Shown here in pieces: positions 1-53,003 of a stretch of 64,000 nucleotides of DNA. The DNA is from Aureliella sp. (GTDB lineage Bacteria > Planctomycetota > Planctomycetia > Pirellulales > Pirellulaceae), in NCBI GenBank assembly GCA_963691875.1, contig OY829846.1:737465-801464 (forward strand), given 5' to 3'. The notes below the pieces were generated by a model, which did no database searches, had not been told where the DNA came from, and worked only from the letters and a program-made list of their open reading frames with translations. A program made the translations under genes and the position numbers. Position 1 is the stretch's first letter, and each line of letters opens with the position of its first letter.

Positions 1-793
1 TACCCCGCAGCCTATGCATGCCATCCGGGGTTAGCCCCAGCTCGGGGTAGCGGTTTACGAACTTTGCGTTGCTTCGAAGACCATTCTTCTCATACCGTTC
101 ATAAATGAGCCAATCCGAGTACATTGCGGCTAGGTCTACATCGTCGTGTGTGCTACTCGGTTTCGATGGTTCTTCAGCTTGGCCTTTGTTCGGCTTCAAT
201 GGTTCCTGCTCTGCGAGATCCAGAAGCCAATCAATGATCTGCATTGATGCACTGTGGCAATCTATGTGCCACGCATACCAACCACTATCAGTGTCCGGGC
301 CGCTTTTGAAACCAGGATGCCCATATGCGTAGATACGCTTCAACTTGAACCCACAGTCCGGTCTTCGCTGTAGTCCGATTTCAACTATGAACTGCCACCA
401 ATCGTCTGCATTACTGACGAACTCTTCTGAATAGCTGCGAAGAAACTGCTTTCTGTATTCCCGGGAAACTACATCTATCGCAAGCTCGCCTAATCTGGCC
501 GGAACCCTCAGATCGTAGTTTTTGTTATCCGGCAATAGGTAACAAATATCCCTGACGAGATTTTCACGAATGCAATATCTCTGTTGTATGACTGCCTTTA
601 ATTCTGGCAGCTGAAACACTAGCTTATCGACCTTAATTGCGGGTAAACGGGTGCAGTTCTGCCGGATCAGGATGGGCAGTTCTCCGTGCCGATCTAACTT
701 ACGTTCAAAAGCCGCACGGAGTGTTCTAAGGCTACGGACAGAGGGCCGCCGCGGTTTCAATCCGGAGTGGTCCCCGGCTTTGTCTGCAGTCAT
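1..793 (-). CDS. Hypothetical protein, partial (runs off the left edge), >264 aa
   Basis: Hand translation from ATG at 793 gives MTADKAGDHSGLKPRRPSVRSL... with no stop down to base 1. It is absent from the ORF track, probably because no stop lies in the window. No family recognised. Confidence 0.6.
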   Translation of the reverse strand, partial: MTADKAGDHSGLKPRRPSVRSLRTLRAAFERKLDRHGELPILIRQNCTRLPAIKVDKLVFQLPELKAVIQQRYCIRENLVRDICYLLPDNKNYDLRVPARLGELAIDVVSREYRKQFLRSYSEEFVSNADDWWQFIVEIGLQRRPDCGFKLKRIYAYGHPGFKSGPDTDSGWYAWHIDCHSASMQIIDWLLDLAEQEPLKPNKGQAEEPSKPSSTHDDVDLAAMYSDWLIYERYEKNGLRSNAKFVNRYPELGLTPDGMHRLRG

Positions 794-1147
794 GGGAAGT
801 CCTATTCTTTGGCTGCCAGGCTGCGTCTCGGTACGGACGGAATAGGGCATCTGTACCGAAACACATTAGCGGGTAATTAGGCCGCAAACCTGGTCACGAT
901 AGCCTAATGGATTAGTCACACGGCCCCACCACCCCGCAGGTGTACGCAGCCCCCCTAAAAAGTATTTGCTAGGTCGCAATTGTGTGCGCGACACGATAGG
1001 TCGCTGCCGCTCCATTCCTCAGAATCTGACCGCCCCCCGGTGTCAGCACAGGCTAACATTCCACGGTTCCCTGCAGTGCATGCAGCAGCTCAGCTAAATG
1101 CTCATCGGCCAGATGCTCCCTGATGCATTCTGCGAACATCTCAGCCG

Positions 1148-1179
1148 GCTGTGGGGTACTTTTTGGGGTACTTTCGCTG
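1148..1179 (+). repeat. GGGGTAC direct repeat, candidate integrase arm-type site (copy 1)
   Basis: gctgtGGGGTACtttttGGGGTACtttcgctg; near-identical to 7257-7291; starts 69 bp before a tRNA 3' fragment. Confidence 0.7.
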
Positions 1180-1216
1180 CTGGTTTCGTTTGGCCCAATG
1201 TTTTGTTGGGTGGGTG

Positions 1217-1234
1217 AAGTCCTTGCGGGGGTAC
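1217..1234 (+). mobile_element. att core: duplicated tRNA 3' end (isotype uncertain, Leu or Arg-like)
   Basis: AAGT-CCTTG-CGGGGGT-A-C parses as T-loop 57-60, T-stem 3' strand, acceptor 3' strand and discriminator. No tRNA 5' half upstream; a terminator follows. Confidence 0.6.
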
Positions 1235-1238
1235 ATTT

Positions 1239-1271
1239 AAGCCGCTTTTCCCTGGGGAATGGCGGTTTTTT
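1239..1271 (+). terminator. Intrinsic terminator after the tRNA 3' fragment
   Basis: AAGCCGC...GCGGTTT stem with inner TTCCC/GGGAA pairing, followed by a T run. Confidence 0.6.
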
Positions 1272-1374
1272 GTTTCCATTCACTAAATAATTCATCTATC
1301 TTTGCGGATTATTTGCTTATTATCAAACACTTGCAGCGGTGCAGAAACCAGCCGCAAACACTATCCGGGCTTTG

Positions 1375-1777
1375 AAAGCAAGAAGAATTGATTCTGACTG
1401 AAAGAGGCACCAATGAGTGACCAACCAAATCCATACAGCGAGCCAGAGAGTAGCGAGCTACCTATCGTTGAAGCGAAGAAGCCCACAAGCAAGCGTAAAA
1501 TTTTGTATTTGATAGCGATCGGTGTCATCTGGACGCTTGCACTTATTGGTTTGGTACCAGTTGTGTTTACGGTCTGGCTTCTTCTTTATGGTCATAAGTA
1601 TTCTTGACCAGCAAATGCATGAAACAAGGCTCCAAAAGCAAGAAGAATTGATTCTGACTGAAAGAGGCACCAATGAGTGACCAACCAAATCCATACAGCG
1701 AGCCAGAGAGTAGCGAGCTACCTATCGTTGAAGCGAAGAAGCCCACAAGCAAGCGTAAAATTTTGTATTGGATAGCG
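1375..1777 (+). repeat. 135-bp perfect direct repeat with 260-bp period (1375-1509 / 1635-1769; extends to 1517/1777 with one mismatch)
   Basis: Direct comparison. The repeat covers the RBS (gaaagagg) and the first 32 codons of two ORFs. Confidence 0.95.
1413..1607 (+). CDS. Small membrane protein (NPY-motif N-terminus, hydrophobic C-terminus), 64 aa
   Basis: RBS-like AGAGG before ATG; MSDQPNPYSEP start typical of planctomycete small membrane proteins; hydrophobic segment LIAIGVIWTLALIGLVPVVFTVWLLL. Confidence 0.65.
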   Translation: MSDQPNPYSEPESSELPIVEAKKPTSKRKILYLIAIGVIWTLALIGLVPVVFTVWLLLYGHKYS

Positions 1778-1942
1778 TTTGGTGGCTGTGTCGTCCCGCT
1801 TGCACTTCTTGGTTTATTGACAGTTTGGCAAGTTTCGTTTTGGATCGCCACGGCTGGCAGTACACCCCCCCCTGCGGTGGATTTAGTGCGCCATACGGGC
1901 TGCTTTTCGCGCAGCGCGGGGCAAAGGTGCAATGAGTTGTAA
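1673..1942 (+). CDS. Small membrane protein, paralog with identical N-terminal 32 aa, 89 aa
   Basis: Same RBS and N-terminus as 1413-1607 but a different TM segment and tail; C8 tract at 1865-1872. Confidence 0.6.
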   Translation: MSDQPNPYSEPESSELPIVEAKKPTSKRKILYWIAFGGCVVPLALLGLLTVWQVSFWIATAGSTPPPAVDLVRHTGCFSRSAGQRCNEL

Positions 1943-2532
1943 CTAACCGGAGAATGAAGGCTCTTTTTCCTTTCTTTTTCCTCTGTTTCTCTCGTTTTCT
2001 GCGAGCAAAAGAAAAAAGCGTAGGAAAGATCTCTAGGCGATAGGCAATGTTACTCGGGCTGCATCTTCGCTACACGAGTCTGAGCGATAGATCTTCGCTT
2101 TCGATAACACGTTAGCCGGACTTCGGGTGCTAAACACTATTATCAATCGTTCGTCGAAGGTCGGATGAGCATGTTGAATCGGTCTTAAGTCTACTCAATA
2201 TGTCGAGTGTTTCCTTGTTGACGTGGAGTACATTGATTACCCGTGTATGGGTTATCTAAGCTAAGCTGTTTGTCCCAAGCGGGCGCACCCGAGTCGCTAC
2301 TGAGATTTCTTCGACGGACGGAGTCTCGCACGATAGTTCGCTGCTTCATAGAATTCAGAGATGATCTAGGGCAGGTAAAATACACGGCGGGCGAGATATG
2401 CTGTCTTTTTACCCTGAATGCATCAGCGCAGATCGGGTCAACCGGCCAAATAGGTTCAGGGCAGATGTGAAGAGGCTCCTGGCGTTATTGGACTCAGATT
2501 TGAGAAGATAGATGGCTGGAAGGAGAATAAGG

Positions 2533-3389
2533 ATGAATCAATGGAGAATAAGCACGGTGTGCTCTTTCCTGTGTCTGGCAGGTTTGTTGGGCTGTCGGCC
2601 CAACATTGAAAAGACCGAAGCAGAAGTACCTGCTGTTGAGAGTCAGCCAACAACCAGCGAGATTCGGATTCTGGCTTGGAATGTTGAGTCCGGCGGAAGC
2701 GAAGCAGAGACCATAGCAACACAGCTCTCCGAGTTTAACACCTATGATTTGTACGCTTTGAGCGAAGTGTCACCGCGACACTTTAAGATCTTTTCCAGCG
2801 CTGTTGGTGACAACTTTACCTCATTGGAGAGCAGGAGTGGCGCAAGTGATCGGTTGCAAATCATCTTTGACAAAAGTCGTTTCGAGCTCCTTGAGCTAGA
2901 TGAGCCTCAGGAGATTGAGGGCATCAAAGTAAACGACGGGAACCATCGTTCACCACTGATCGTGCACCTGAAAGACCGCCGGACCGGCGAGGAGATGCTA
3001 CTGACAGTAGTACATCTTGCGAGACGGAACGAGGAACTACGCGAGCAACAAGCTTTGGGCCTGACTGAGTGGGCGCGAGGCAAGTCGATACCTATGGTTG
3101 CCAATGGCGATTTCAATTTCGACTATTCATTTGTAACTCACGAGGGCAATCAGTCGTGCGCAGCAATGTTTGGCAGTGGGTTAAGCCGCAGGAATGGATC
3201 GATACGAATTGGTCTGGTAATTCTCAAGGCAAAGACCGTTATCCGGATTCGATGCTTGACTTCGCTTTTGTGGCTGGGAAGGCGCGAGAATGGGAGCCTG
3301 TCTGCAACGTGATAGTTCGTCCCGGAGATTTTCCGGATGACGAAAAGACAAGCGACCATCGGCCGACTGAATTAATACTGCATCCATGA
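2533..3389 (+). pseudogene. Endonuclease/exonuclease/phosphatase (EEP) family lipoprotein, frameshifted near 3165
   Basis: Lipobox-like LLGC, ILAWNVES and ANGDFNFD in one frame; VWQWVKP...LDFAFV...SDHRP in the shifted frame ending at 3389. Confidence 0.8.
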
Positions 3390-3523
3390 TGCGACGTGCG
3401 GCATTGATTGATGCTGTGTCTTCTGTCCCCGTGAGATCCGGGTTCTAATCGACGACTTCATCAACTACGAACTCTGCTTCCCGGGAGCCGTTACTGGCTC
3501 CACAAAGGCCAAATGTACGTACT

Positions 3524-4261
3524 ATGACGAGCTACTTACGGTTCCAGTCGATGAAGCAGCGAGAACTTGTGCCAGAGCTCATGGACGATCCCCAGTTGGA
3601 TCGGCTTGAGCATCAAGCTGCTCTCGAAGGACTAAAGCGAATCAATGCCTGGACTGGCAATCCTAGACTCGCATGGAGTTTTTTGCGAAAAAGCATTTCA
3701 AAAGGTCCTGTCAACCAAAAGCTCAGTCTTCTCGATGTAGCAACCGGCTCAGCGGATATACCAATCGCTATACATAGATTGAGTACGAAAACAGGACAAA
3801 GTCTGAGTGTCACTGCCAGCGATATTAGTGTAGCCGCACTTTTGGTAGCCCGACAGCAGGCGTGGAATAATCGAGCGAATATCGAACTGATTGAACATGA
3901 TGTTGTCCAAAACGATATCGAGGGAAAATTCGATTTCGTCATGTCTTCACAATTCCTGCACCATTTGAACGAAAACGAGGTTGTTACCGTTCTAAAGCGA
4001 ATGCGGTCTGCAGCCCGTAGAAAGGTGATAGTGATTGATCTTCACCGGAGCTGGATGAACTTCTATCAAGTTTGGCTCGCCACGCGTTTGCTAAGTCGAT
4101 CAAGAGTCGTGCACTTCGATGGTCCACAATCTATTCGGGCTGCATTCACTTTAAAGGAGTTCGAGAAGCTGGCCGTTCGAGCAGGCTTTCGCGATTTCGA
4201 GCTCTCGTTGAGGTGGCCATGCAGGTTTGTATTCTGTGGGAAAGGCAATGGCACCAATTAA
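3524..4261 (+). CDS. Class I SAM-dependent methyltransferase (PKS-associated)
   Basis: ELMDDP N-terminal motif, LLDVATGSAD SAM-binding loop, FLHH motif. Confidence 0.9.
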   Translation: MTSYLRFQSMKQRELVPELMDDPQLDRLEHQAALEGLKRINAWTGNPRLAWSFLRKSISKGPVNQKLSLLDVATGSADIPIAIHRLSTKTGQSLSVTASDISVAALLVARQQAWNNRANIELIEHDVVQNDIEGKFDFVMSSQFLHHLNENEVVTVLKRMRSAARRKVIVIDLHRSWMNFYQVWLATRLLSRSRVVHFDGPQSIRAAFTLKEFEKLAVRAGFRDFELSLRWPCRFVFCGKGNGTN

Positions 4262-5447
4262 AGAAGTTCCTTCGACTATTGAAATTGACCAAGTGGTAAG
4301 TGGCTCGTGGGATATTGTCGTAATCGGGGCGGGGCTAGCGGGCGCTCTATGCGCACGTCAGTTAGCTCTACAGGGCTGCAAAGTATTGCTTGTCGACCAA
4401 GCCAAGTTCCCCCGATGGAAAGTCTGTGGTTGCTGCCTAAACGGTGCTGCAATCGATGTACTCGCTCGATCGGGGCTTCGCGAATTAATCATGGATTGCA
4501 ATGCGATTCCGCTCAAAGGTCTCGAGCTTTCTTCCGGTCATCGTGTTGCCACTTTTGAACATAAACATGGTGTAGTCGTTTCGCGGGAGAGACTAGATAG
4601 CGCATTGATCCACGCAGCGATCGAGGCAGGTGTCGAATTTATTCACGGGGTCAAAGCACAGATAGATCCGATCGATCCGCAGCAGGTAATCGTGCATCTC
4701 AGAAATATTCCGACGCACGTATCTATTACGGTTCCAATCGCAATCGCAGCAACTGGTCTAGGCGCGCGAGTTTTCTCTGATTGCGTTCATGAGTATCGAG
4801 AAGTCGCAACCTCATCACGAGTCGGTTTGGGGGCAGTGATTGAAGACTGCCCTTCCGAAGTTGAACCCGGTGTAATCTATATGCACTGTAATTCAGAAGG
4901 TTACGTTGGGCTAGTGCGATTAGAAGATAATCGTCTGGACATTGCAGCGGCCTTGGACGCTGACGCAATCAAGCGTTCTCGCGGACCTGCGGAACTAATT
5001 ACCAAGATCTTGAAACAATCGTCAGCTCGTGCGCTGGCGGGCATTCGCTCAGCTTCATGGCAAGGAACGCCCAAGCTGACACAACGACGGGCTAATGTTG
5101 CCGAGCATGGTTGTCTTTTCATCGGAGATGCCGCGGGCTACGTTGAGCCCTTCACCGGGGAAGGCATGGCGTGGGCACTGGCTTGCGGTTACACCTCGGC
5201 AGCATTGGCGGCACGTGCCATCAATGCGAACGAAACCGAAAGGGTCGCCGAACAATGGAAAAAACATCATCGAGAGATGATTGTTCGTCGTTCCCGGGCC
5301 TGCAAACTTATCAGTCTGGGATTGCGTTATCCGATTGTTCCTCAGTTCTCGGTGCGTGCACTGTCGGTCTTTCCATGGTTGGCACAACCGATCGTCCGAT
5401 CCATGAACGCACCTTTCGATTTGAATGCTCTTCCTGATTTCACGTGA
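4248..5447 (+). CDS. FAD-dependent oxidoreductase (geranylgeranyl-reductase/aromatic hydroxylase-like)
   Basis: VVIGAGLAG Rossmann motif, KVCGCCL, IGDAAGYVEPFTGEGM. ATG at 4248 overlaps the methyltransferase end. Confidence 0.9.
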   Translation: MAPIKEVPSTIEIDQVVSGSWDIVVIGAGLAGALCARQLALQGCKVLLVDQAKFPRWKVCGCCLNGAAIDVLARSGLRELIMDCNAIPLKGLELSSGHRVATFEHKHGVVVSRERLDSALIHAAIEAGVEFIHGVKAQIDPIDPQQVIVHLRNIPTHVSITVPIAIAATGLGARVFSDCVHEYREVATSSRVGLGAVIEDCPSEVEPGVIYMHCNSEGYVGLVRLEDNRLDIAAALDADAIKRSRGPAELITKILKQSSARALAGIRSASWQGTPKLTQRRANVAEHGCLFIGDAAGYVEPFTGEGMAWALACGYTSAALAARAINANETERVAEQWKKHHREMIVRRSRACKLISLGLRYPIVPQFSVRALSVFPWLAQPIVRSMNAPFDLNALPDFT

Positions 5448-5449
5448 AG

Positions 5450-6526
5450 CTATTCAAAGAGCGCTGTTTCAGCCATAAGCCCAGGTCCAAAGCCCAACGC
5501 TAGGTGCGGCCCTTTCGATTGCTGTTTCAAAAAACGCTGCAAGACGAACAAAATTGTCGGAGATGACATGTTGCCGTGTTCGGCCAAAACCGCTCGAGAA
5601 TTATTGAGATCTTCCTTTCCGAGCCCCAGTGCTACTTCAACGGCATCGAGGATTTTTGGTCCGCCGGGATGCACGACCCAAGACTGTATCGACGCCAAAC
5701 TGTGGCCACGATCAGACAGCCATTGCTCGAGCCAAGGCCGGAGATTCGCGGAAATTAAGGGGGGAACAGCACTATCGAGCGACATGTCGAATCCAAAATC
5801 CCCGACTTCCCAAGTAATTGCTTCTCGAGAATCTCCAATCAAGTAGGAGGCAGTGTCTGCCAATGAACAAACCGTTCTTTGAGAACTATTTCCTTCCACA
5901 ATCAGGGAGGCTGCTCCATCCGCGAAAAGTGCGTTGCCAAGCATCCGTTTCGGATCCCACTGAAACTTGAAATGCAAACTGCATAACTCGACCGCGACAA
6001 GGAGGATTTTGGCGGAAGGCTGAAATGATGCGAGCCCCAGTGCAGCTCGTAGTCCGTTAATCGCGCCATGACATCCCATGAATCCGACGTTTAGTCGTTG
6101 AGCGCTAGGGGACAAACCAAGTTGATCGAATAGATGGATGTCGACTCCCGGCGCATCGAATCCGGTGCATGATACCGTTACAACATGCGTGATCTCTGAA
6201 GGCTCCACACTCGCGTCCGCCAACGATTTTTCTGCGGCCTCGACTGCGAGTGGACCGGAGTGTTCAGCGTACAACTCCATTCGTTCCCGGGTCGTTGGCC
6301 CTGGCTCGCTGCTGGGCGGGGCACCACGGTCTATCCAGTCGTAAGCAATCGTATATGGCACGCAAGTCCTACGCTGCTCAACATACGATTTGCGGTACAT
6401 CGCACTTAGCAATCGTACTTCCCGATTGTCCCGACAGATGAGGTCTTTCGACATCTCGAGCGCTTGCTGCTGAGTCATCGTATGATTGGGTACCGCAAAT
6501 CCAAAACCAACTATCGAAGCCGCCAC
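5450..6526 (-). CDS. Type III polyketide synthase (chalcone/alkylresorcinol synthase-like)
   Basis: Catalytic triad contexts GFMGCHG, HPGG and GNMSS; LFADGA; GFGPGL. Confidence 0.95.
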   Translation of the reverse strand: MAASIVGFGFAVPNHTMTQQQALEMSKDLICRDNREVRLLSAMYRKSYVEQRRTCVPYTIAYDWIDRGAPPSSEPGPTTRERMELYAEHSGPLAVEAAEKSLADASVEPSEITHVVTVSCTGFDAPGVDIHLFDQLGLSPSAQRLNVGFMGCHGAINGLRAALGLASFQPSAKILLVAVELCSLHFKFQWDPKRMLGNALFADGAASLIVEGNSSQRTVCSLADTASYLIGDSREAITWEVGDFGFDMSLDSAVPPLISANLRPWLEQWLSDRGHSLASIQSWVVHPGGPKILDAVEVALGLGKEDLNNSRAVLAEHGNMSSPTILFVLQRFLKQQSKGPHLALGFGPGLMAETALFE

Positions 6527-7256
6527 ATCAGTTCCTTAGGTGTTCGGTATATCAGAGCCTGTGGATCCTTCGCACGTAGATTTCGTGTTCAAGCATTGGA
6601 CACGATAACGAAACAAAGACTCGCAAGTGCGTAAAGTTTATTCAAAGGAGGGCCACTGAAAATATATAGCTTCAAGAATATGTAGAAATTGGTGCTTGAT
6701 TCTCCTCAGGGCAGTCAGACACAGTCGCACAGCTCGGAAATGCGCCCCCAACTTTTTCGGTATGTCGCTTCAAACAATATCCTTTGCTACGGATGGAACA
6801 TCTTAGAACATCTGATCGAACGACTGGCCTTGTCAGAATTCAACCACTCCAGCGTAAAGTCAACGATGTTGCTGCTTGGATCTCAAAGAGGCTCAGCATT
6901 GGCTTGTTTTTCCGGCTGCGGCCATGCCAAAGACGTCAGATCGTGTTGCGTTCAACATTCTCCGCCGTCCACTGCTATCTTTAAAAATTCCGAGATAAGT
7001 CATGTACCAGTAAAATGCCCCATTTCCTGATACAGAGTTGTGAAGGTATTTGTTGGTAAATAGTTTTGTTTTTATCGCACTGCTTCGACCTGGCTATCGC
7101 TGCGACCGGAGCTGTAGCTTTCTGCGGTTTCGATGGACCATCTTCGGGGCTTTTATTACCCTGGTGATGGACATACGCCTCGCAAAGCCTGTATCAGGTC
7201 TGCCACTTGCGGTGCGGTCAGATGTTCCCCAAGACAGGCTGCGACCATATCAATTT

Positions 7257-7291
7257 GCTGTGGGGTGCTTTTTGGGGTACTTTGGTCGCTG
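7257..7291 (+). repeat. GGGGT(G/A)C direct repeat, candidate integrase arm-type site (copy 2)
   Basis: gctgtGGGGTGCtttttGGGGTACtttggtcgctg; starts 69 bp before the tRNA-Glu-like fragment. Confidence 0.7.
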
Positions 7292-7325
7292 AATCCAGCA
7301 GACCCTTGTTTTTGTTGTTCGGGCA

Positions 7326-7343
7326 GAGTCCCGTAGGGGTCAC
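7326..7343 (+). mobile_element. att core: duplicated 3' end of a tRNA, probably tRNA-Glu
   Basis: GAGT-CCCGT-AGGGGTC-A-C matches the 3' end of tRNA-Glu genes beginning GACCCCT. No 5' half upstream. Confidence 0.75.
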
Positions 7344-7345
7344 TG

Positions 7346-7380
7346 AAACCCTCAGGAGCGAAAGTTCCTGAGGGTTTTTT
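7346..7380 (+). terminator. Intrinsic terminator after the tRNA-Glu fragment
   Basis: Perfect 12-bp stem AAACCCTCAGGA / TCCTGAGGGTTT with an 8-nt loop, followed by a T run. Confidence 0.85.
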
Positions 7381-7386
7381 CTTGCC

Positions 7387-7809
7387 TTAAGCTGACATCG
7401 TGTCAAGCATGACACCGCCAGCGACAACGCCATTTCCATCTGCTACTGACACGACTTCACTAGCCAGCGGCACAGATGTTGTCGTGGCACCTGCTCTCCA
7501 GTGCTTAGCTGTAACTTGCAGATAGTAACTCTCCGCGGTCTTGGTTGAATGCCCGAGCTAAGCGTCTACAACATGAGACGGGAAGCGTTCCTGCAACCCT
7601 GTCCTCCGCGTTGATAGCAGGTTGATGGACGCCTTGGGCCAAGGTGGGTGCCCCCGATATTTGATACACCTTGATGAGAGCATCAATTGGGTAATGGGAT
7701 CTGCATCAGTGTTGTACTTCTGCTTCGCCGCAGATGGTGGTTCCACGCTAAGCCCCGTATTTTCATCGTCGCAATTCACCACGGACCGCACCAGAGCATG
7801 TAATTGCAT
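7387..7809 (-). pseudogene. Tyrosine recombinase/integrase C-terminal remnant
   Basis: Reading through TAG at 7558-7560 gives PWPKASINLLSTRRTGLQERFPSHVVDA*LGHSTKTAESYYLQVTAKH, resembling the planctomycete integrase tail PWPK..QNLR.TR.TEL...FP.HVV..WLG.S...A..HYLQVT. Confidence 0.8.
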
Positions 7810-8048
7810 CGCATGACAAACAACACTGCTCTAGAAAGAAAGCAGGTGAAAGCGCGTAGGCCAAAGTCGCAACTTTGCCTTCAACACCAACTGAAATCTT
7901 GGTTTCGAATTATTCGATCAACCACTAACATGATGTAATCTAAGTTTTGTTCCAAAAGTGGAAAGCGTTCGATCTGACGTTGCAATTTTTTTCACCCCCC
8001 AAGAACTTTGCAGTAAGCGAATAACTTCCTTCGGACATCGCAAATGGG

Positions 8049-9057
8049 TTATCGCAAGGAAGCTCTTCTTCGTCGATGAGCAAGTCCCATCAAACCGGCA
8101 CTTACTAAGACTGCAAGCGAACCAGGCTCTGGCACAGCGATAGACGAACGACTTGCAACTCGGAAACCGTAATCGCCGGCCTCGATCGAAGGGGAGAACG
8201 TGTTGCGACGCCGCGAAGACAAGGCTTCGGAAGACGAGCCATCGGGTATGGCCCAGCTCCCACCACGGACCCCGCGATTCGACGAACCTGAACTATTGTT
8301 TAGGTTAAAGCTTGTCTCTTCCCATTCGTACACATTACCCCCAAACCCATGATTCCAAACGGACTCAACCCACCTGCCTGAGTGATGTCCGCTGGGCCTT
8401 GAGAATCAGATGTGCGTACACCGCCGTGTTGTCGTCCTTACCACTGGACACGGGGGACGGCTTATTTCCATTCAGGCTGGGCCAGGCACCATAACTTCCT
8501 GTAATCGGATTGTAATACGCCGCCTTGTACCACTCGTCCATACTAGCGAGCCAGTATTGTGCGTCCTTGTGACGGTAGAGATTTTCGCCACCCAGTTGCC
8601 AAGCTTCAGCCGAACTCCACAATGAAATATCGTCGTTTACACCACCCTTAGTGAAGTTATACGCCGCCTGGAAACCCTGGCTGGTGTTCAGCCAGTTCAC
8701 AAATCGAGCCGCTTCATTCCATGACACAGACGTTGCTGGCTTCTCCGTCCCGCGTGTTTGCTTTGTGATTTCCAACGATTGTGAGGCATTGAACTTTGTG
8801 ATCATGTCTTCGCTGACTTAGTACTTACCCATCTGGAAGGTGTACTCGACCTTTCCCGCGGTCCCTGGATTACCGGTCGTGTCGTCGGGGTTGTTGGGAC
8901 TACCGATTTCGACGAACGTCATACCGAACTGGTTGGCACCGCTGCCAAAGGTAACGATGTCACCGTACAACGGCGAACTGCCGGCTAGGGCGAGACAAAC
9001 TATGGTGAAGGCAAGTGAAGCCAGGTTTCTAGAGAACATATCAGTGGTGTTTTTCAT
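8049..9057 (-). pseudogene. PEP-CTERM-anchored formylglycine-generating-enzyme (FGE/SUMF1) domain protein with a nonsense codon and a frameshift
   Basis: Signal peptide; MGKY*VSEDMITKFNA (TAA at 8818-8820 in frame); frameshift near 8400; then GGNVYEW, RGGSW, GFRVA and VPEPGS-TM-RRRR. Confidence 0.9.
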
Positions 9058-9383
9058 GCTGAATCGATGTAAGTGAGTAGTTTACTTGGCAAGAATATAA
9101 AGAAAATCCCCAAAGTGCTTCGGAGAGTGAGGGCGCAGCGCTCCCGCGTGCATTTCATAACCATGCGAAGCTCAGACGGGATTTGTCTCAGAGAAATCTG
9201 AAACCTGCATCGAATCGTTGTGCTTGTTGCGTGAACATGCGTTCTCCAAGAGAAGCAGTACGTTCGCACAGCTGGAACCAAGTAACAATCAAAAAGTGTT
9301 CACGAGAACACTTTGGGCACCATTAGCCGAACTCGCAGAGGTTTTTCGAAGTCAAGAACACGCCTCTTCTTTTAAGAACGCCT

Positions 9384-12300
9384 CTAAGGCATCTCCGGTC
9401 GCTGCTCGGCGGACGATCTCTCCGTGTCTCCGCCCACTATCTCCGCTCCACCCTCCTGCTCCGCAGACCTGGAAACTTCAGACGGACTCAGGGCCAGCCG
9501 GAAACCGCCGTTGATCGTTCGGTACGTAGGGTCGTCCGTGCAGCGGTACGCCGACCGGCAATTCGCCGAGACGTTGCCCCCGGTGCCGCCACGGTACACC
9601 CGGTACGAGCCTCTCGCGGAGCCAATCGGATCGGTCGTTGACGCTGAGTCGAGGCCGGTGTACCAATCATGCGTCCATTCGTACAAATTGCCATGAATGT
9701 CAAAAAGCCCGCGACCCGTTGGCCGGAGATCCTTCGGAGGATGCACCCGCTTACCGCTGTTTTCCATGAACCAACCAAAACGTGTCAGCAAACCGATGTC
9801 ACTGCCATACCCGTAGGCCGTCCGAGCCCCGGCCCGCGCTGCTACCTCCCATTCCGTTTCCGTCGGCAAGCGAAAACCACGACTTTCCAAGTTGATCGGC
9901 CAATCCCTTGGGGCCCAGTCCGCTAACGGATTAGGCTCGCGTGGATACTTAACCTCGTCCAAGGAATCAGGAGATGCATAAGCCTGCTGGTCTTCTGGTA
10001 ATCCCATCTGCTGACCTAGCCAGCGAGAGAAGGCTACCGCGTCGTACCAATCCACTCCAAATCCAGCGTCTTCGGGACTGGCGTCGTATTGCGACATGAA
10101 CTCGGAATACGAGGGTTGGAACGCAATCAGTTCCTCGAACTTCACCTCCCGATCCAAGATCGCGAAGGGACGCGTCAGCTCGACCTGATGGCGTTCCTCG
10201 TCCTTCACGCGATCAGGTTCGTCTCCCACGGAGCCTATTTTGTATTCGCCCTCCCGAAGCACGATGAATGTGTAATAAAAAGTGTTGTTTGATACTGGTT
10301 CGGCAACCGATTCATCCGCTCGCTGGTCTGCCAATGCGTCAGAATTTTCGTCCTTGGTGTTCGTCTCCCCTTTACTTTCAAACGCATTACGTCTTTCCGC
10401 GCCAGCGGGATCGCGTTCGTCAGCTTCTTCTGTCGTGTTATCGTTCGGTTGAGGAGGCTCTGTCGGAGTCACGGTAATCGCCAGCGTGAACCACTCACGA
10501 TCAGGCGAATACGGCACCGGAGTCTGATCGATACGGTTGGTGACATCGGTTTGCTCCCAATGCCGCAGGAGCCAGCCCGCCGCACCATGGACGCCCGAAC
10601 TAGGGTCGTTTGCGTACCAGTCCGCCAATTGTTCGTGCAGCGACTTGCGACGCGTTTCCGGGATCTCCTCGATCTGGAACTCACCAAGGGCCAGCAAGAG
10701 CGCGTACCGAGATCGTGCGCTTCGCCGAAACGCTTCGCTTGTGATATCGAGTGATGGTCCCTCTCGTACACGTCGCGTTTCAATATCTAGCAGTTCCAGC
10801 AGCGGCTCGGCACCCACACCTCGCTCGCGGCAGCGAAAAATGAACTGCGTCAGCGCTTCCGGGTCATCGGTGTAATCAAAGACAGGCAGGACTTTTTCTC
10901 GCTCTCCAAGTCTCAGCAACAACACAGCGGCATTGGCTCGCTGCTGGCCGAAAGCGATCCGCTCGACCGATCCCATGTCGTCCGGCGGAAGCGTGGCCGC
11001 CGTGATCGCAAGTGCCTCGACGATGGAGCCCGACGGACTAGCAGAAACCAGCGGATAGAGCACGGCGAACTGCTCTGGCGTGGCGACGGTCAGCAGCTGC
11101 GATAGTGTATCGACGTCCCTGGCGGCGTAGTCGGCAAACGCATTAGCGGCACTGAGTCGCTGTGCATCGGTCACTTCGTTGGCGGCGAAGATTTGTTCGA
11201 GATCCGGTAACAGCTTGTTTTGTAGCGGTCGCAATGCCTCGCGCAGCAGCGGCTGGTACTCGGCGTTGGAAGATACGAGCTGTTCGACCACAAATTTCAG
11301 ATCCTCATCAGTCCAGCCTTCGGTCGCTGATGGCGGACCATAGTCAGCCAGGGCCAATGCCGCTCGGAAACGCCGCCGTGGATCGGCTTCGTTTCTCAGC
11401 ACCTCGCGGAATTCGTCGGTCAGCGTCGCCGCCGAAAAACGCAACAATTTCCGTATCGGGAGTACGTAGGTTACCTTGCCGGTGAGCAATTCTTCGACGA
11501 GCGAATCGACATGCGAAGGATCACTGCTAACCGCCGCCAGGCGAGCGTGCAATTGGCTTCGCTGTTCGTCGAGTGTTTTGGCTGCACGCGATAGCAGGGG
11601 CTTGAGATAGTTGGCGGCGACTTCTGGATTCCCATCCAGTTCCGCAACGATGTCAGGAATCTGATTCGGTTCGGCACTGATTAATTTACCGACCAGCCCC
11701 TCGATGCGGGTTTCTTCTTGCTCCTGCTTTTTCTGCGCAATCAGTTCTTGTCGGTTTTTTTCGATCTGGCTACGGATGCCGAGGCCGCTAACCACGATCG
11801 CGGCCAGAGCTGTAACCGCGAGTGCTGAGCGAATGCCATGCAAGCGTCCAGCTCGGCTCATCATCTTCTTTTGCGACTCAGTCCACTTCCTCTTGTCCGT
11901 CAGCATTCGGATAGTGAGATGCTCCCACCACGACGGCAGCAACCGGTTTCCGGGCTTGGCATTCCAGTTTGCGGAACTGTCGGCCAACTTCAATTCCGCG
12001 CGTCCGCGACGGGTTTCTTTCTGCTTGCGAGTCAACCAGTCTCGCAGTGAAGGAACCAGATAGTCGTGCGTCAGTTGAAAGTACTTTTCCCCCGCCTGAA
12101 GCCGTGCTGTAGAGTCATTAGCATCATCGACACCAGCAGGGTCGGTCGGCGTGATCAAACGGAGTTGGCTGTCCAAGATCCGGATTAGTTCCGCGAAGTC
12201 CCGGGGACGACTGACATAGCCGCTAGTATCCAACAGCTCGGCATGAGAGAGCATGTGTCCTTTGATGTCGGTTCCCCTGTCGGGTAGCAAAGCTCTCAAG

Positions 12301-14294: not shown

Positions 14295-14973
14295 CCATCG
14301 GAAGCAACACCAGCCTTGATGTTCGTTGACTTGTCACTGGGCTCCGTCGCGTAGAGCAACTTGCGCTTGCGTAGAAAAGCCCGCATCGATCGTTGAACGC
14401 GGTAGCGATAAAAGGAGAATCGCTCAGGAAAGTGCAATTGTCGCATACAGCCGACCGGGGTTCAAGAACTATGCACCGGTCGCGATTGCAACTCACCGTA
14501 CAGCTGAACACCAAGTCGCTGCCCCCAGGAACCAGGCCAGGTAGACCCCGCTGAGCAATCCTGCCCCCTCCGTTCTAAACCGAGTACCGTGGCAGGAGAC
14601 ATTTTGAAATATTAAGATCGAAAAACCGGTTCAAGGCTTGAGATGAGGACAACCTTCGGTGGTTGGACCAGCCAACAGCTTGCAGTATTGAGGCCCGGCT
14701 CCCTCAATCTTAATCATCTTGAAGGCAATGATCTCAAATCGCTCAACGACTATCCTGAGCGGCGAAGTCAGCGCTGGCCGATCTCCATTTTGAATATGGA
14801 AGAACAGCTATCGGACATAACGCAATAGGTCTTTTGTCCGCACCTGCTAAATCCTAATCCGCTTTCGGTGGAGGCCCTTCTTTACAATCCCGACCACCGG
14901 ACTAAGCCTAGGCTGACATGGTTCGGAATGAGGTGCGCAAATAGATCAAGCTTATTTACTCGGGGCCACAGGT

Positions 14974-15657
14974 TCACCCATTCAATTTCTGTTGCCTTTC
15001 CCGCTCTTCTCTCTCCTTTTGATAGACGGCGAAACTTTCCTTCTTCGCTTTCTCCTCCCGGATTGCGTAAGGAATAAAGAAAAAGGAACCTATACCAATA
15101 GTGGTCAAAAACAGCCCAAAGAGTGTCGGTCCTATAATATTCGAAATATGAATCCCCGGTTGTAAGACAGAATCTTCAGGATTCGCTGGATTGAAATACA
15201 CTTCACATGGTTTTGTTACTGAAAGATCAGCAAGCGTTTTTTGGGCCTTATCGTATCTGTTGTAAGAAGGGATTGGAATTCTCAGCCTCGTGCCGTTATG
15301 AGTCTTTCCATCGACCAGATATGTAAAATGAACTGTCGGACGGAAACTCTGGGTACTCCGTCCATCCTTGTCTCGCATCGAAGAAGACTCTACTTTCTTG
15401 GACAGGAGTTGGCCTTGGACAGAAGGCCAGGACGCGGACTCAAGGGCTTCTTGCACATTCACGAAAGTCCAAACTAAGAACGCCACCCCCCTACAAAGAA
15501 AGGGAGTGGGAAAAACCATTTGAAAATAAAATCTATCATCTTGGATTGCCCTGCTTTCTGATACATGCTCATGAAGAAAGGATGGGGTAGTTGTCTCTAT
15601 TTCGCTCTTCGGTTTTAAGGTAGTTAGCGAATCGACTGGAGTCGAAGCGGCACACAC
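14974..15657 (-). CDS. DUF3592-family membrane protein (start uncertain)
   Basis: SWPSVQG...P.V.FTYLVDG...V.FNPANPEDSVL between two hydrophobic segments. Confidence 0.7.
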   Translation of the reverse strand: MCAASTPVDSLTTLKPKSEIETTTPSFLHEHVSESRAIQDDRFYFQMVFPTPFLCRGVAFLVWTFVNVQEALESASWPSVQGQLLSKKVESSSMRDKDGRSTQSFRPTVHFTYLVDGKTHNGTRLRIPIPSYNRYDKAQKTLADLSVTKPCEVYFNPANPEDSVLQPGIHISNIIGPTLFGLFLTTIGIGSFFFIPYAIREEKAKKESFAVYQKEREERERQQKLNG

Positions 15658-15722
15658 TGAGACGCGAATTCGGCCAGCGAAAGTCTGTTGGCCGAAATGT
15701 GAGGAAGTCGATGTTTGTAAGT

Positions 15723-15908
15723 CTACCTCCGATGCTCAATCCGTACGCGTGCTTCCTGCACGGTTGTACACTTTACCGAGCCCAGGCTCTCGTTGCGGAG
15801 CTTGCCACTGTAGCTCTCCACGCCGCCATTTTGCCCGGCGCTAGCTGGTTCAGTTGAAGACATTGGCACATGTGCACCTCGATCACATTGCGGAGCCTGC
15901 GAACTCAA
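15723..15908 (-). mobile_element. IS3-family transposase remnant (integrase core C-terminal part)
   Basis: QNGGVESYSGKLRNESL...TVQEARVRIEHRR resembles QNG..ESFNG.LRDECL...L.EAR..IE.WR; the rest of the element is missing. Confidence 0.75.
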
Positions 15909-16652
15909 CGTGCGATGAAGCCCGATCCGTTATCACTCCGCATAAATGCTCATACGCCACGGAGGGTAAATAGGTCGACCAACACCGCGATAAAGTCTTA
16001 ACTGCTCAGTTTATGACATATCCAATGCATTGCATTTACGAGTGAATTCATCGATGCACGCACGAATCTTTAATATCCCCCAATCGTTTTCGGTCGAAGG
16101 TAAAATTCACTGACCAAAGATGATCATTGAACTCCGATTTGTGGCCAGTGATTCTTCCTTCGCTGGTACCAATCAGATTTCGTTTTTTCGTCTTTTTCGG
16201 GGCCTTCAGGTCTTCCTAGCATAAAAGACGGTAAGTGAGATCTGCTTGGCCTTGCAGCCGTCACTTATGAGCAGATTCACAATCTTCTTGGTGTGAGACC
16301 CTCGCCGAAGCCTAGTCATGAAGAATCTCCATCTGAGAAATACTCACAACACGCCAATCAGTTGTTGAGGAGCACTTAAAGTCGTTGTAAAGCTTGACGT
16401 CCGCGCGGTATTTTGCGAGACGGAACGAGGCAGAAGCAGCATCTTGCTAAGCGAATCGCCTGCACACACAACTATTTACATCTGATGCAACGCTACATCA
16501 AACTAGGCAAGCACTCTGCCCCCCTCAAGAGCAACATCCAATTTTAATGGGCGAACGGGCACATTTATGATAGGAAGCCTTTCCTTCCGAGAAGAATCAT
16601 CGAAAATACAAAGTGTTTTTATATTAGCCTCTAACCGAACGGAAACACGTAA

Positions 16653-52818: not shown

Positions 52819-52902
<84 letters not shown>

Positions 52903-53003
52903 CTGATAACAACCACTAGTCGCAACGGACTAGCGACATTGCAGATCTAGACGTTTGTTGTCTTTGCATTTCAATTCACATTTTGTAGGCTCGGAAATAC
53001 AAC

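What the first reader, a model, noticed from the sequence alone, without database searches (positions are those of the whole stretch)
1148..7380. Two att scars from different tRNAs share one arm-site architecture with identical spacing
Seen: two orphan tRNA 3' ends (1217-1234 AAGTCCTTGCGGGGGTAC; 7326-7343 GAGTCCCGTAGGGGTCAC), both cut at tRNA position 57 in the T-loop and both followed by a terminator. Each is preceded by the near-identical motif gctgtGGGGT(A/G)CtttttGGGGTACttt starting exactly 69 bp upstream. Known: tyrosine integrases that target tRNA 3' ends duplicate the 3' fragment and bind direct-repeat arm sites near the core. Inference: these are the right ends of two related elements that keep the same arm sites but use different tRNA cores, nested or stacked here. 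That would suggest an element family with retargetable core specificity, or an island carrying another element's attachment site.
Basis: partly seen in the sequence, partly recalled or inferred. Interest (0 to 1): 0.8.

Follow-up and report, generated by a model that had tools for sequence, protein, structure and literature searches.

The report
Orphaned integrase tails at two attR scars
The two look-alike motifs mark right-end junctions left by small mobile elements of marine Planctomycetes that insert into tRNA genes; their attachment site lies inside the integrase gene, so each insertion cuts off the last ~57 codons and leaves them as a scar.

Summary
GGGGT(A/G)CTTTTTGGGGTAC occurs only at 1153-1171 and 7262-7280. 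Each copy starts 64 nt (69 from "gctgt") before an 18-mer shaped like a tRNA 3' end, and a hairpin plus U-run follows. On the minus strand both loci encode the last ~57 residues of a tyrosine integrase family found in Pirellulales. In circular 9.6-10 kb relatives (PrimPol-helicase, family-A polymerase, integrase), the integrase ORF runs through the whole attP: P' repeat, terminator hairpin, tRNA core, P repeat, then a conserved helical tail. Integration therefore detaches the tail, as in myxophage Mx8. The GGGGTAC direct repeat sits on both arms at fixed distances. It co-varies between the arms of one element and is read in two different frames (VP versus STP), so the constraint is on the DNA; it is probably the arm-type integrase site. 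Family members sit next to tRNA-Arg, Glu, Gln (two kinds), Asn and Leu. Locus 2 matches the 3' end of the organism's own tRNA-Glu exactly, and a family integrase lies next to that tRNA. Locus 1 is an Arg-type scar for which no exactly matching parent tRNA was found. No excision was seen. It is a new variant of a known kind.

The parts
1053..1234 (-). Locus 1: orphaned 3' end of an integrase gene. It encodes ..TPARTSPTQQNIGPNETSSESTPKSTPQPAEMFAECIREHLADEHLAELLHALQGTVEC and ends at a stop codon at 1053-1055.
   Evidence: tblastn of the full-length integrase of circular element L041, residues 442-498, matches window 1232-1065 (53% identity, E 3e-12). It aligns with 10 full-length family C-termini. 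Six synonymous differences against locus 2 fall at conserved residues (read).
1153..1171 (+). Locus 1 P-arm direct repeat GGGGTAC-TTTTT-GGGGTAC (half-sites 1153-1159 and 1165-1171); a putative arm-type integrase site, read as STPKSTP on the minus strand.
   Evidence: The same 19-25 nt are found in L003, L014 and L048. Spacing to the core is 64 nt, as in the attP of L040 and L041 and the attR of L048 and L019; in L044 the spacer is 1 nt shorter.
1217..1234 (+). Locus 1 core (O): an Arg(CCT)-type tRNA 3' fragment, AAGTCCTTGCGGGGGTAC.
   Evidence: 17 of 18 match the O(Arg) fragment GGTTCGAGTCCTTGCGGGGGTAC in sister-strain L013. 15 of 18 match the 3' end of tRNA-Arg(CCT) in L003. The attP core of circular element L044 is GTATCCTTGAGGGGGTAC. 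The exact parent tRNA in the source genome was not confirmed.
1239..1271 (+). Locus 1 hairpin plus U-run (terminator-like). Its loop TTTCCCTGGGG is shared with the P' hairpin of the Arg-type element in L003.
   Evidence: dG -15.6, z -2.6; compared with L003.
7156..7343 (-). Locus 2: orphaned 3' end of an integrase gene. It encodes SDPYGTLPEQQKQGSAGFSDQSTPKSTPQQIDMVAACLGEHLTAPQVADLIQALRGVCPSPG and ends at a stop codon at 7156-7158.
   Evidence: It reads the core in the same frame (SDPYGT) as integrase P0004 of the same genome, so excision would rebuild an ORF of about 491 aa.
7262..7280 (+). Locus 2 P-arm direct repeat GGGGTGC-TTTTT-GGGGTAC.
   Evidence: The identical variant is the P' repeat of the L048 element.
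7326..7344 (+). Locus 2 core (O): 19 nt identical to the 3' end of tRNA-Glu(UUC), from position 57 onward.
   Evidence: 100% match to the tRNA-Glu of L013 and L014. A contig of the isolate's own runs joins ACCGCCCTTTCACGGCGGCAACACGGGTTC to position 7326.
7345..7380 (+). Locus 2 terminator hairpin plus U-run (the B' side of the junction).
   Evidence: dG -26.1, z -6.3. It is unlike the P'(Glu) arm seen after the intact tRNA-Glu.
7387..7724 (-). Fragment of an older, more distant tyrosine integrase gene (C-terminal catalytic region ..LGHSTKTAESYY..DTMSA). It has an in-frame TAG at 7558-7560 and converges on the core. It is probably the remnant of an earlier element at the same tRNA.
   Evidence: The single alignment of L041 integrase residues 306-497 to window 7719-7177 is 30% identical overall; the fragment's match to the L003 integrase is 23%. 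No GGGGTAC repeat lies between the hairpin and this fragment.

Best explanation
Loci 1 and 2 are right-end (attR-type, P-O) junctions of a family of small integrative, self-replicating elements of Pirellulales (Planctomycetota). The elements carry a lambda/Tn916-like tyrosine integrase with three domains, and the attP site lies inside the 3' part of the integrase ORF. In the circular form the ORF runs, on the strand antisense to the tRNA, through these parts in order: the catalytic domain; the P' direct repeat (read as KVPxKVPQ); a hairpin that acts as terminator for the tRNA strand; the core O (the last ~18 nt of the target tRNA); a 44-45 nt spacer; the P direct repeat (read as STPxSTPQ); and a conserved two-helix tail (..FAECIRQHL..LL.EL..). 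Recombination at O rebuilds the tRNA at attL. It leaves an integrase whose C-terminus now reads into the antisense strand of the tRNA, and it carries the last ~57 codons, with the P repeat, to the far end of the element. Those detached pieces are what lie at 1053-1234 and 7156-7343. The GGGGTAC-N5-GGGGTAC repeats are most likely the arm-type sites bound by the integrase N-terminal domain. Locus 2 is the attR of an island or array at tRNA-Glu(UUC). Its attL, with intact integrase P0004, lies outside the window, and an older integrase remnant sits on its B' side. Locus 2 is a proven tRNA fragment. Locus 1 is an Arg(CCT)-type junction stranded inside the strain-variable part of that region. It was probably brought in by co-integration or by recombination between related elements through their shared arms. 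Shown: the anatomy, the homology of the tails, ORF continuity in the circular forms, the tRNA-Glu match, and the range of targets. Inferred: integrase binding to the repeats, any regulatory role for the loss of the tail, and the history of locus 1.
For: The minus-strand peptides of both loci align with residues ~442-498 of full-length (499-529 aa) family integrases. Those integrases lie on contigs of 9.6-10 kb that carry no tRNA gene. One contig (L041) has a 55-nt terminal overlap, and gene order is circularly permuted between contigs. In L041 the same 19-mer GTACCCCTGAAAGTACCCC occurs on both arms and is read as VPLKVP at P' and as TPESTP at P. The repeat co-varies between arms within an element and between half-sites across elements: GGGGTAG x2, GGGGTGC x2, GGTGGTG x2. 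Distances are fixed: the repeat starts 64 nt before O on the P arm (63 in L044) and lies 110-115 nt after the tRNA end on the P' arm. Integrated relatives lie next to tRNA-Arg, Glu, Gln-CTG, Gln-TTG, Asn and Leu. L048 is a clean attL/attR pair with an exact 18-nt repeat, the repeat at -64 and an orphan tail; L019 is a second case. For the source organism, P0004 lies on a contig of the same 7.08-Mb length and ends in ..SDPYGTRTR, which is the antisense reading of the locus 2 core. The isolate's contigs show the intact tRNA-Glu and its P' flank. The sister-strain scaffold places tRNA-Glu and the integrase 13.8 kb from locus 2. The AF2 model has an N-terminal three-stranded sheet plus helix (pLDDT above 90), a disordered linker over the attP-encoded part, and two tail helices. 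Foldseek matches full-length lambda Int and Tn1549 Int.
Against: The attL that pairs with locus 2 is not in the window, and its distance in the source genome is unknown. The synteny evidence comes from a same-species metagenome scaffold that differs left of position 3547. No empty site and no excision joint was seen. For locus 1 no intact tRNA with exactly this 3' end was found: the isolate's tRNA-Arg(CCT) has a different discriminator and a different flank. The integrase fragment to the right of locus 2 aligns collinearly with a full-length integrase, so locus 2 could be one decayed attP-form gene rather than an attR next to an older element. Pfam does not recognise the N-terminal domain. No binding or activity data exist.
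Confidence: 0.8

Rival explanations
1. Both loci are decayed copies of whole attP-form integrase genes (P-O-P' kept together), for example junctions between tandem or co-integrated elements. On this reading they are not the right ends of elements lying to their left.
For: At locus 2 the integrase fragment, hairpin, core and tail align collinearly and in one frame with L041 integrase residues 306-497. At locus 1 the hairpin after the core resembles the P' hairpin of Arg-type elements (shared TTTCCCTGGGG), and the downstream flank differs from the flank of the isolate's tRNA-Arg. The sister strain has a composite O(Arg)-P'-repeat-spacer-O(Glu*)-P'-integrase remnant, which shows that such fusions occur.
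Against: At locus 2 the region between the core and the integrase fragment lacks the P' repeat and the family's P' hairpin layout. The fragment's own match to a family integrase is only 23% identical (L003), whereas the locus 1 tail is 53% identical, which points to two different origins. A junction between a new element and an older resident one has the same sequence layout as this rival, so for locus 2 the two readings largely coincide.
Confidence: 0.25
2. The GGGGTAC repeat is conserved only because it encodes a proline-rich repeat (KVPxKVP or STPxSTP) in a flexible integrase linker. It is not a DNA site.
For: The repeat always lies in coding sequence. All subfamilies keep a P-containing repeat with a 4-residue period (NPHQNPHQ, KTPPKTPP and others). 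The region is predicted to be disordered.
Against: The same DNA words are read in two frames within one protein (VP at P', STP at P). P0002 and P0003 read the P' repeat in the other frame and then return to the family frame. A 25-nt stretch is identical between integrases that are otherwise only 23-67% identical. The position is fixed relative to the core on both arms, and the integrase model has an N-terminal fold like that of arm-binding domains.
Confidence: 0.1
3. The resemblance is chance, or the loci are copies of a generic short repeat (REP- or MITE-like) unrelated to integration.
For: Only two copies exist in the window, and ARAGORN and Rfam call no tRNA there.
Against: There were no matches in 100 shuffles. 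Locus 2 is identical over 19 nt to tRNA-Glu of the same organism. Both loci show significant protein homology to integrase C-termini and have the same anatomy as proven attR sites.
Confidence: 0.01

Closest known systems
Myxophage Mx8 IntP/attP (Myxococcus xanthus)
   Same: attP lies within the integrase coding sequence. Integration gives the prophage integrase gene a new 3' end and leaves the catalytic part intact (PMC6070905, citing Tojo 1996 and Magrini 1999; PMC4383910 notes that the integrases of Mx8 and SSV extend across attP). That the Mx8 attB lies in a tRNA gene 3' end (tRNA-Asp) is from my own recollection, not from a paper read here.
   Different: No detectable sequence relation: tblastn of P0008 against 50,697 phage records gave only a weak Microbacterium phage hit. 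The elements here are 7-10 kb replicons without capsid genes, not a ~50 kb phage. Only ~57 codons are detached. From memory, Mx8 replaces 112 residues; I did not check that figure. Both arm repeats lie inside the ORF.
Lambda/Tn916-type heterobivalent tyrosine integrases with arm-type sites
   Same: The predicted protein has three domains, including an N-terminal sheet-plus-helix domain. Foldseek aligns 384-397 columns to full-length lambda Int. Direct repeats sit on both the P and P' arms at fixed distances from the core.
   Different: The arm sites lie within the integrase's own coding sequence. There are two half-sites with a 12-bp period per arm, plus a possible inverted third copy. No IHF or Xis sites were identified. 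Binding has not been tested.
SSV-type 'suicidal' integrases of archaeal viruses and plasmids
   Same: The att site is carried inside the integrase gene, which is split on integration (PMC8371274).
   Different: In the SSV type the gene is disrupted, so the integrated copy is not intact. Here the split lies after the catalytic Tyr box (LGNS..HYAM), and integrated copies keep long intact ORFs of 439-455 aa. The review states that self-disrupting integrases occur only in archaea.
tDNA-flanked genomic islands as catalogued by Islander; tandem island arrays
   Same: The signature is an intact tRNA plus a displaced 3' fragment, with the crossover in the T-loop to acceptor region and an integrase next to the tRNA. 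Tandem accretion at one tRNA is also seen (PMC4383910).
   Different: Here the displaced fragment is part of an ORF, so pipelines that reject fragments overlapping coding sequence could miss it.
P4-like and other satellite or integrative elements with integrase, AlpA-type HTH and PrimPol/D5-type helicase
   Same: The core gene set is integrase, an HTH_17/AlpA-like protein and PrimPol-DUF3987.
   Different: Many members add a family-A DNA polymerase with a 3'-5' exonuclease. No capsid-redirecting or packaging genes were recognised. The host phylum is Planctomycetota.

Membership tests
tRNA-targeting integrative element (tDNA plus displaced fragment signature) | An intact tRNA gene in the same genome whose 3' end is identical to the displaced fragment | tested here: met
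   Locus 2: 19 of 19 nt match tRNA-Glu(UUC) in same-species loci L013 and L014. An isolate contig joins the tRNA-Glu body to position 7326.
tRNA-targeting integrative element (tDNA plus displaced fragment signature) | The same feature for locus 1 (an intact tRNA ending in AAGTCCTTGCGGGGGTAC) | tested here: inconclusive
   The isolate has a tRNA-Arg(CCT) homologue (71 nt, 10 mismatches to L003), but it is followed by G-CTTCTC rather than A-C-ATTTAAG. Its T-arm sequence could not be read. The closest matches are the L013 fragment (17 of 18) and the L044 attP core.
tRNA-targeting integrative element (tDNA plus displaced fragment signature) | A tyrosine integrase gene between the tRNA and the fragment, next to the tRNA | tested here: met
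   P0123 and P0122 converge on tRNA-Glu in L013 and L014. P0004 lies on a contig of the same 7.08-Mb length as the source genome. The isolate's loose ends show the P' flank and the integrase 3' end. The position relative to the window in the source genome is not known.
tRNA-targeting integrative element (tDNA plus displaced fragment signature) | Excision to a circle and an empty attB | tested here: inconclusive
   No joints were seen in the isolate's or the metagenome contigs, but assembled contigs drop rare variants. Circular forms exist only for relatives (L041).
Mx8-type arrangement (attP inside the integrase ORF, C-terminus exchanged on integration) | The integrase ORF is continuous across the core in the non-integrated form | tested here: met
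   Ten to fourteen family proteins of 490-529 aa read through P', O and P to a conserved tail. DNA was checked in L040, L041 and L044, which carry no tRNA gene.
Mx8-type arrangement (attP inside the integrase ORF, C-terminus exchanged on integration) | The integrated copy has a different C-terminus, and the detached part lies at the other end of the element | tested here: met
   Integrated copies end in ..S(Y/C)P(A/T)RTRT, the antisense reading of the tRNA. Orphan tails lie at attR in L048, L019 and both window loci.
Mx8-type arrangement (attP inside the integrase ORF, C-terminus exchanged on integration) | Sequence homology to Mx8 IntP | tested here: not met
   tblastn of P0008 against the phage collection at E 1e-3 found only Microbacterium phage Footloose. 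The arrangement works like Mx8, but the integrase is not a detectable relative.
Mx8-type arrangement (attP inside the integrase ORF, C-terminus exchanged on integration) | The change of C-terminus alters integrase activity or specificity | not testable with these tools
   This needs recombination assays with full-length and truncated integrase.
Heterobivalent (arm-binding) tyrosine integrase | An N-terminal arm-type DNA-binding domain | tested here: inconclusive
   The AF2 model has a three-stranded sheet plus helix at residues 3-53 with pLDDT above 90, and Foldseek alignments to full-length lambda Int span 384-397 columns. There is no Pfam hit and no domain-level structural comparison was made.
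Heterobivalent (arm-binding) tyrosine integrase | Repeated arm-type sites on the P and P' arms, distinct from the core | tested here: met
   Direct repeats lie 64 nt before the core (63 in L044) and 110-115 nt after the tRNA end. They co-vary between the arms of one element and are independent of reading frame.
Heterobivalent (arm-binding) tyrosine integrase | Physical binding of integrase to the arm sites | not testable with these tools
   This needs EMSA or footprinting.
SSV-type suicidal integrase | Integration splits the gene so that no intact catalytic integrase remains | tested here: not met
   The core lies after the LGNS..HYAM tyrosine box. Integrated genes keep all catalytic motifs.

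The most novel reading that the evidence does not exclude
A widespread family of marine Pirellulales replicons (7-10 kb; PrimPol-helicase with or without a family-A polymerase) has packed its whole ~210-bp attP into the 3' end of the integrase ORF. That stretch holds both arm-site pairs, a tRNA terminator and the tRNA core. Integration would then reversibly remove a conserved two-helix tail. This would act as a built-in switch between an 'integrating' and a 'resident' integrase. The modular arms-plus-core cassette would also let the family move between at least six tRNA targets, and the stranded Arg-type cassette inside a tRNA-Glu array could be a snapshot of such exchange.
Probability: 0.35. 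Interest if true: 0.75.

Novelty: new variant of a known kind. Interest (0 to 1): 0.6.

Why it matters
The finding explains a puzzling pair of motifs as a regular by-product of integration, and it defines an element family in a phylum whose mobile DNA is little studied. I found no description of it in the papers I searched. As far as I could find, it is a second bacterial lineage, after Mx8, in which attP lies inside the integrase gene. A recent review describes self-disrupting integrases as exclusive to archaea (PMC8371274). The family offers a natural series of closely related integrases (50-85% identical) with the same arms but different tRNA cores, which is good material for studying how core specificity is re-targeted. 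It also matters for annotation. The orphan tails and the integrase ORFs that read into tRNA genes will be mis-called, and island finders that discard tRNA fragments overlapping coding sequence may miss these islands. In this organism the tRNA-Glu array appears to include a cluster of a type III polyketide synthase, a methyltransferase and a flavoprotein, so the elements may move secondary-metabolite genes.

Tried and rejected
- Exact-motif scans. The genome collection gave 12 loci, of which only one (L003, a Planctomycetales MAG) is a real relative. The viral contigs and the metagenomes gave no match.
- A protein search with the locus 1 peptide found only the window's own ORF.
- Look-ups of window or source-genome proteins (P0001, the methyltransferase, P0004) returned 'not on record'. 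The DNA to the left of the window could therefore not be fetched. Cluster mates P0122 and P0123 and the PKS gave same-species scaffolds instead.
- Attempts to read the isolate's tRNA-Arg T-arm through L003 gave only the flanks. A narrow lay on locus 1 found no second contig.
- A test for an attB-type contig at locus 2 was negative. The loose end at 7326 is best explained as the attL contig.
- PolA-like hits at 18.4-19.4 kb turned out to be the host's 934-aa DNA polymerase I, not an element.
- A weak tail-like hit at 22946-23128 lies inside a long ORF that looked to me like a pseudouridine synthase; I ran no family search on it and did not pursue it.
- The resemblance between GGGGTAC and the tRNA-Arg acceptor end was considered as a possible core mimic and dropped, because elements at other tRNAs keep GGGGTAC-like repeats whatever the tRNA end is.
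- The idea that the tail is an independent small ORF starting at the shared ATG was dropped, because L019 and the full-length proteins lack that ATG.
- Pfam on the N-terminal 99 residues and a PDB sequence search gave nothing useful.
- The simple terminator scan missed both hairpins.

Full report

Yes. The sequence reads gctgtGGGGTACtttttGGGGTACttt at 1148-1174 and gctgtGGGGTGCtttttGGGGTACttt at 7257-7283. The 18-mers AAGTCCTTGCGGGGGTAC (1217-1234) and GAGTCCCGTAGGGGTCAC (7326-7343) each begin 69 nt after 'gctgt'. The 19-nt repeat, allowing two mismatches, occurs only at these two places in the window and in none of 100 shuffles. The looser pattern GGGGTnn-N5-GGGGT also occurs only there. Each 18-mer is followed by a stable hairpin and a U-run: -15.6 kcal/mol with z -2.6, and -26.1 kcal/mol with z -6.3. 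ARAGORN and Rfam find only one tRNA in the window, tRNA-Leu(CAA) at 52819-52903.

**2.

Read on the minus strand, both loci give related peptides that run from the 18-mer through the repeat to a stop codon:
- Locus 1: ..CTPARTSPTQQNIGPNETSSESTPKSTPQPAEMFAECIREHLADEHLAELLHALQGTVEC*
- Locus 2: ..SDPYGTLPEQQKQGSAGFSDQSTPKSTPQQIDMVAACLGEHLTAPQVADLIQALRGVCPSPG*

Conserved residues differ by synonymous changes (TGC/TGT, GAG/GAA, GCT/GCA, CTG/TTG, GGA/GGC), which indicates selection on the protein. To the right of locus 2, at 7387-7724 on the minus strand, lies a fragment of a tyrosine recombinase (..LGHSTKTAESYY..) with an in-frame TAG.

**3. Relatives.**

An exact-motif scan of species-representative genomes found one true relative, L003, a Planctomycetales MAG. 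There the same 25 nt lie inside the 3' end of a 441-aa integrase ORF that converges on an intact tRNA-Arg(CCT). The order is tRNA, hairpin, repeat, integrase.

A protein search with that integrase gave 582 homologues, from Stieleria, Rhodopirellula, Novipirellula, Rubripirellula and many marine metagenomes. Most are 435-460 aa long and end in ..S(Y/C)P(A/T)RTRT or similar. Those endings are antisense translations of tRNA T-arms. In 15 loci with DNA in hand, the integrase sits next to tRNA-Arg(CCT), Glu(UUC), Gln(CUG), Gln(UUG), Asn(GUU) or Leu(CAA). Where a recognisable repeat is present, it lies 110-115 nt after the tRNA end. The two half-sites change together between elements: GGGGTAG twice, GGGGTGC twice, GGTGGTG twice.

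**4. The attachment site lies inside the integrase gene.**

About a tenth of the family proteins are 490-529 aa long. After the tRNA-antisense peptide they continue with ..TAENTG..STPESTPQ..(F/L)A(E/D)CIRQHL....LL.EL... The two window peptides align with these C-termini. By tblastn, L041 integrase residues 442-498 match window 1232-1065 at 53% identity (E 3e-12), and residues 306-497 match window 7719-7177 (E 2e-13).

These long integrases lie on contigs of 9.6-10 kb in which every gene is on one strand. The genes are a PrimPol-DUF3987 primase-helicase (about 780 aa), a family-A DNA polymerase with a 3'-5' exonuclease (about 760 aa), the integrase, an HTH_17/AlpA-like protein and several small unknown ORFs. 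L041 has a 55-nt exact terminal overlap, gene order is circularly permuted between contigs, and none of the contigs carries a tRNA gene. They are therefore circular, attP-form molecules.

In tRNA orientation, attP reads as follows:
- tail stop ... P repeat (19 nt)
- a spacer of 44-45 nt
- the core O (18 nt, resembling a tRNA 3' end)
- a strong hairpin plus T-run (z -5.7 to -7.2)
- the P' repeat
- the body of the integrase gene.

The distance from the start of the P repeat to the start of the core is 64 nt in L040 and L041 and 63 in L044. The two window loci also have 64.

**5. The repeat is a DNA-level feature.**

In L041 the identical 19-mer GTACCCCTGAAAGTACCCC occurs on both arms. It is translated as VPLKVP on the P' side and as (S)TPESTP on the P side of the same ORF. 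L044 has GGGGTATATT(G/T)TGGGGTAC on both arms, and L040 has GGGGTA(T/C)TTTCAGGGGTAC. P0002 and P0003 read the P' repeat in the 'STP' frame and then return to the family frame. A 25-nt stretch is identical between integrases that are otherwise only 23-67% identical.

An AlphaFold model of a full-length member (mean pLDDT 83.5) has these parts:
- a confident N-terminal three-stranded sheet plus helix;
- a SAM-like core-binding domain;
- the catalytic domain;
- a disordered stretch that covers exactly the part encoded by attP;
- two tail helices (pLDDT 76-84).

Foldseek aligns the model to Tn1549 Int and, over 384-397 columns, to full-length lambda Int. I therefore read the repeats as arm-type sites for the N-terminal domain. 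This is an inference; Pfam does not recognise that domain.

**6. Proven attR sites look exactly like the window loci.**

In Rhodopirellula sp. P2 (L048, a complete genome), tRNA-Gln(UUG) with integrase P0032 and an exact 18-nt repeat 7.4 kb away enclose PrimPol, DUF3987 and HTH_17 genes. GGGGTACTTTTTGGGGTAC starts 64 nt before the repeat. The antisense ORF reads SYPARTLPTAEITGEHADDLAGTPKSTPALPERFVECVCDHLDDALLNKLIARL..*. L019, from a TARA metagenome, shows a 10.6-kb element at tRNA-Gln(CUG) with its own repeat variant at the same distance and a homologous tail.

**7. Locus 2 in its own organism.**

Integrase P0004 (455 aa) lies on a contig of the same 7.08-Mb length as the window's ORFs. It ends in ..SDPYGTRTR.., the same frame and the same words as locus 2. 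Contigs from runs of the organism itself (97% of the window's words) join the tRNA-Glu body ACCGCCCTTTCACGGCGGCAACACGGGTTC to position 7326. They also show the P'(Glu) flank and the integrase 3' end around a copy of the repeat.

A same-species metagenome scaffold (L013 and L015) is collinear with window 3547-16526 at 98% identity, and locus 2 is 100% identical there. It carries tRNA-Glu(UUC) ending in the same 19 nt, the family integrase P0123 and a remnant of the element's polymerase. These lie 13.8 kb to the left of the locus 2 equivalent. Excision at O would rebuild an integrase of about 491 aa. Locus 2 is thus the attR of an island or array at tRNA-Glu. That array appears to include the cluster of a methyltransferase, a FAD oxidoreductase and a type III PKS at 3524-6526. 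The hairpin and the old integrase fragment to the right of locus 2 differ from the family's P' arm. I read them as the remnant of an earlier, more distant element at the same tRNA.

**8. Locus 1.**

Its core matches 17 of 18 nt of a fragment GGTTCGAGTCCTTGCGGGGGTAC in the sister strain. It matches 15 of 18 nt of the tRNA-Arg(CCT) of L003, and it resembles the attP core of circular element L044, GTATCCTTGAGGGGGTAC. It is therefore Arg-type. The organism has a tRNA-Arg(CCT) homologue, but that gene is followed by G-CTTCTCTTTTCCC.., with no P' signature. An exact parent tRNA was not shown, and locus 1 is not the attR of an element now sitting at tRNA-Arg.

Locus 1 lies in DNA that is strain-specific. 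Positions 1-3546 are replaced by other DNA in the sister strain, and the ORF to its left has no relatives in the database. In the sister strain the corresponding region holds a composite: O(Arg), a P' hairpin, the repeat, a 43-nt spacer, a degenerate O(Glu), P'(Glu) and an integrase remnant. In that composite one repeat serves both as the P' repeat of the first part and as the P repeat of the second. Recombination between related elements through their shared arms, or co-integration of a circular Arg-type element that kept its attP, would explain both strains. This step is inference.

**9. Comparison with known systems.**

The arrangement works like myxophage Mx8. There attP lies within the integrase gene, and integration gives the integrase gene a new 3' end without inactivating the enzyme (PMC6070905; PMC4383910). 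The integrases are not detectably related, however. It differs from the archaeal SSV-type 'suicidal' integrases, because the catalytic part stays intact here (PMC8371274). The arm logic is that of lambda- and Tn916-type integrases. The gene set recalls P4-like elements that carry an integrase, an AlpA-type protein and a primase-helicase, with a family-A polymerase added. A preprint on the Planctomycetes plasmidome does not describe these elements.

**10. Verdict.**

What is new is a Planctomycete family with the whole attP, both arm-site pairs included, inside the integrase ORF. I rate this a new variant of a known kind and of moderate interest. No activity (excision) was detected in the available contigs. 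The functional claims about arm binding and the role of the tail remain to be tested.

Noticed in passing
window 3524-6526: A three-gene cluster: a SAM methyltransferase (3524-4261, +), a FAD-dependent oxidoreductase (4227-5447, +) and a type III polyketide synthase of the chalcone-synthase type (5450-6526, -). This layout is typical of alkylresorcinol-type clusters. It lies between the two att scars, and in the sister strain it lies between tRNA-Glu and the locus 2 equivalent.
   Followed up: partly
window 1368-1524 and 1628-1784: A tandem duplication (157 nt, 96% identical, 260-nt period) covering the 5' halves of two small predicted membrane-protein ORFs (1413-1607 and 1673-1942). Neither has a Pfam match. 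The isolate's contigs break here.
   Followed up: no
window 2512-3389: An endonuclease/exonuclease/phosphatase-family gene appears split into two overlapping ORFs (2512-3312 and 3069-3389), so it may be frameshifted. The isolate's runs show variant letters at 2913 and 2929.
   Followed up: no
window 2324-2352 versus 3548-3576: An inverted 29-nt copy (76% complementary) of the first codons of the methyltransferase gene (MKQRE..). It lies 1.2 kb upstream, exactly where synteny with the sister strain breaks (3547). It may mark a rearrangement.
   Followed up: no
window 7407-7428: A direct repeat GACACCGCCA-gc-GACAACGCCA between the locus 2 hairpin and the old integrase fragment. It could be the arm-type repeat of that older, more distant element.
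   Followed up: no
L033 4631-4648, L034 5573-5590, L035 4452-4469: A more distant integrase subfamily (35% identical) has the same tRNA-Glu 18-mer about 125 nt upstream of the integrase start codon, with no tRNA gene nearby. This is a different int/att layout aimed at the same core.
   Followed up: no
L013 1972-2190 (minus strand): A composite scar in the sister strain: O(Arg) fragment, P' hairpin, repeat, 43-nt spacer, degenerate O(Glu), P'(Glu) and an integrase remnant. A single repeat is shared by two attachment sites.
   Followed up: partly
window 955-1005: A stretch of about 50 nt that matches three different contigs of one marine metagenome run (X1). It suggests a short dispersed repeat just left of the locus 1 tail.
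   Followed up: no
window 52819-52903: tRNA-Leu(CAA), a target of this integrase family in L021, is unoccupied here. The rpsL gene follows it directly, and no second copy of its 3' end exists in the window.
   Followed up: yes
P' and P arms of L040, L041, L014 and L044; window 7291-7303: A third, inverted copy of the half-site ((G/A)TACCCC) lies 8-25 nt beyond the direct repeats on both arms. Locus 2 keeps a degraded version (AATCCAGCAG). The P arm looks like a duplicated copy of the P' arm.
   Followed up: no
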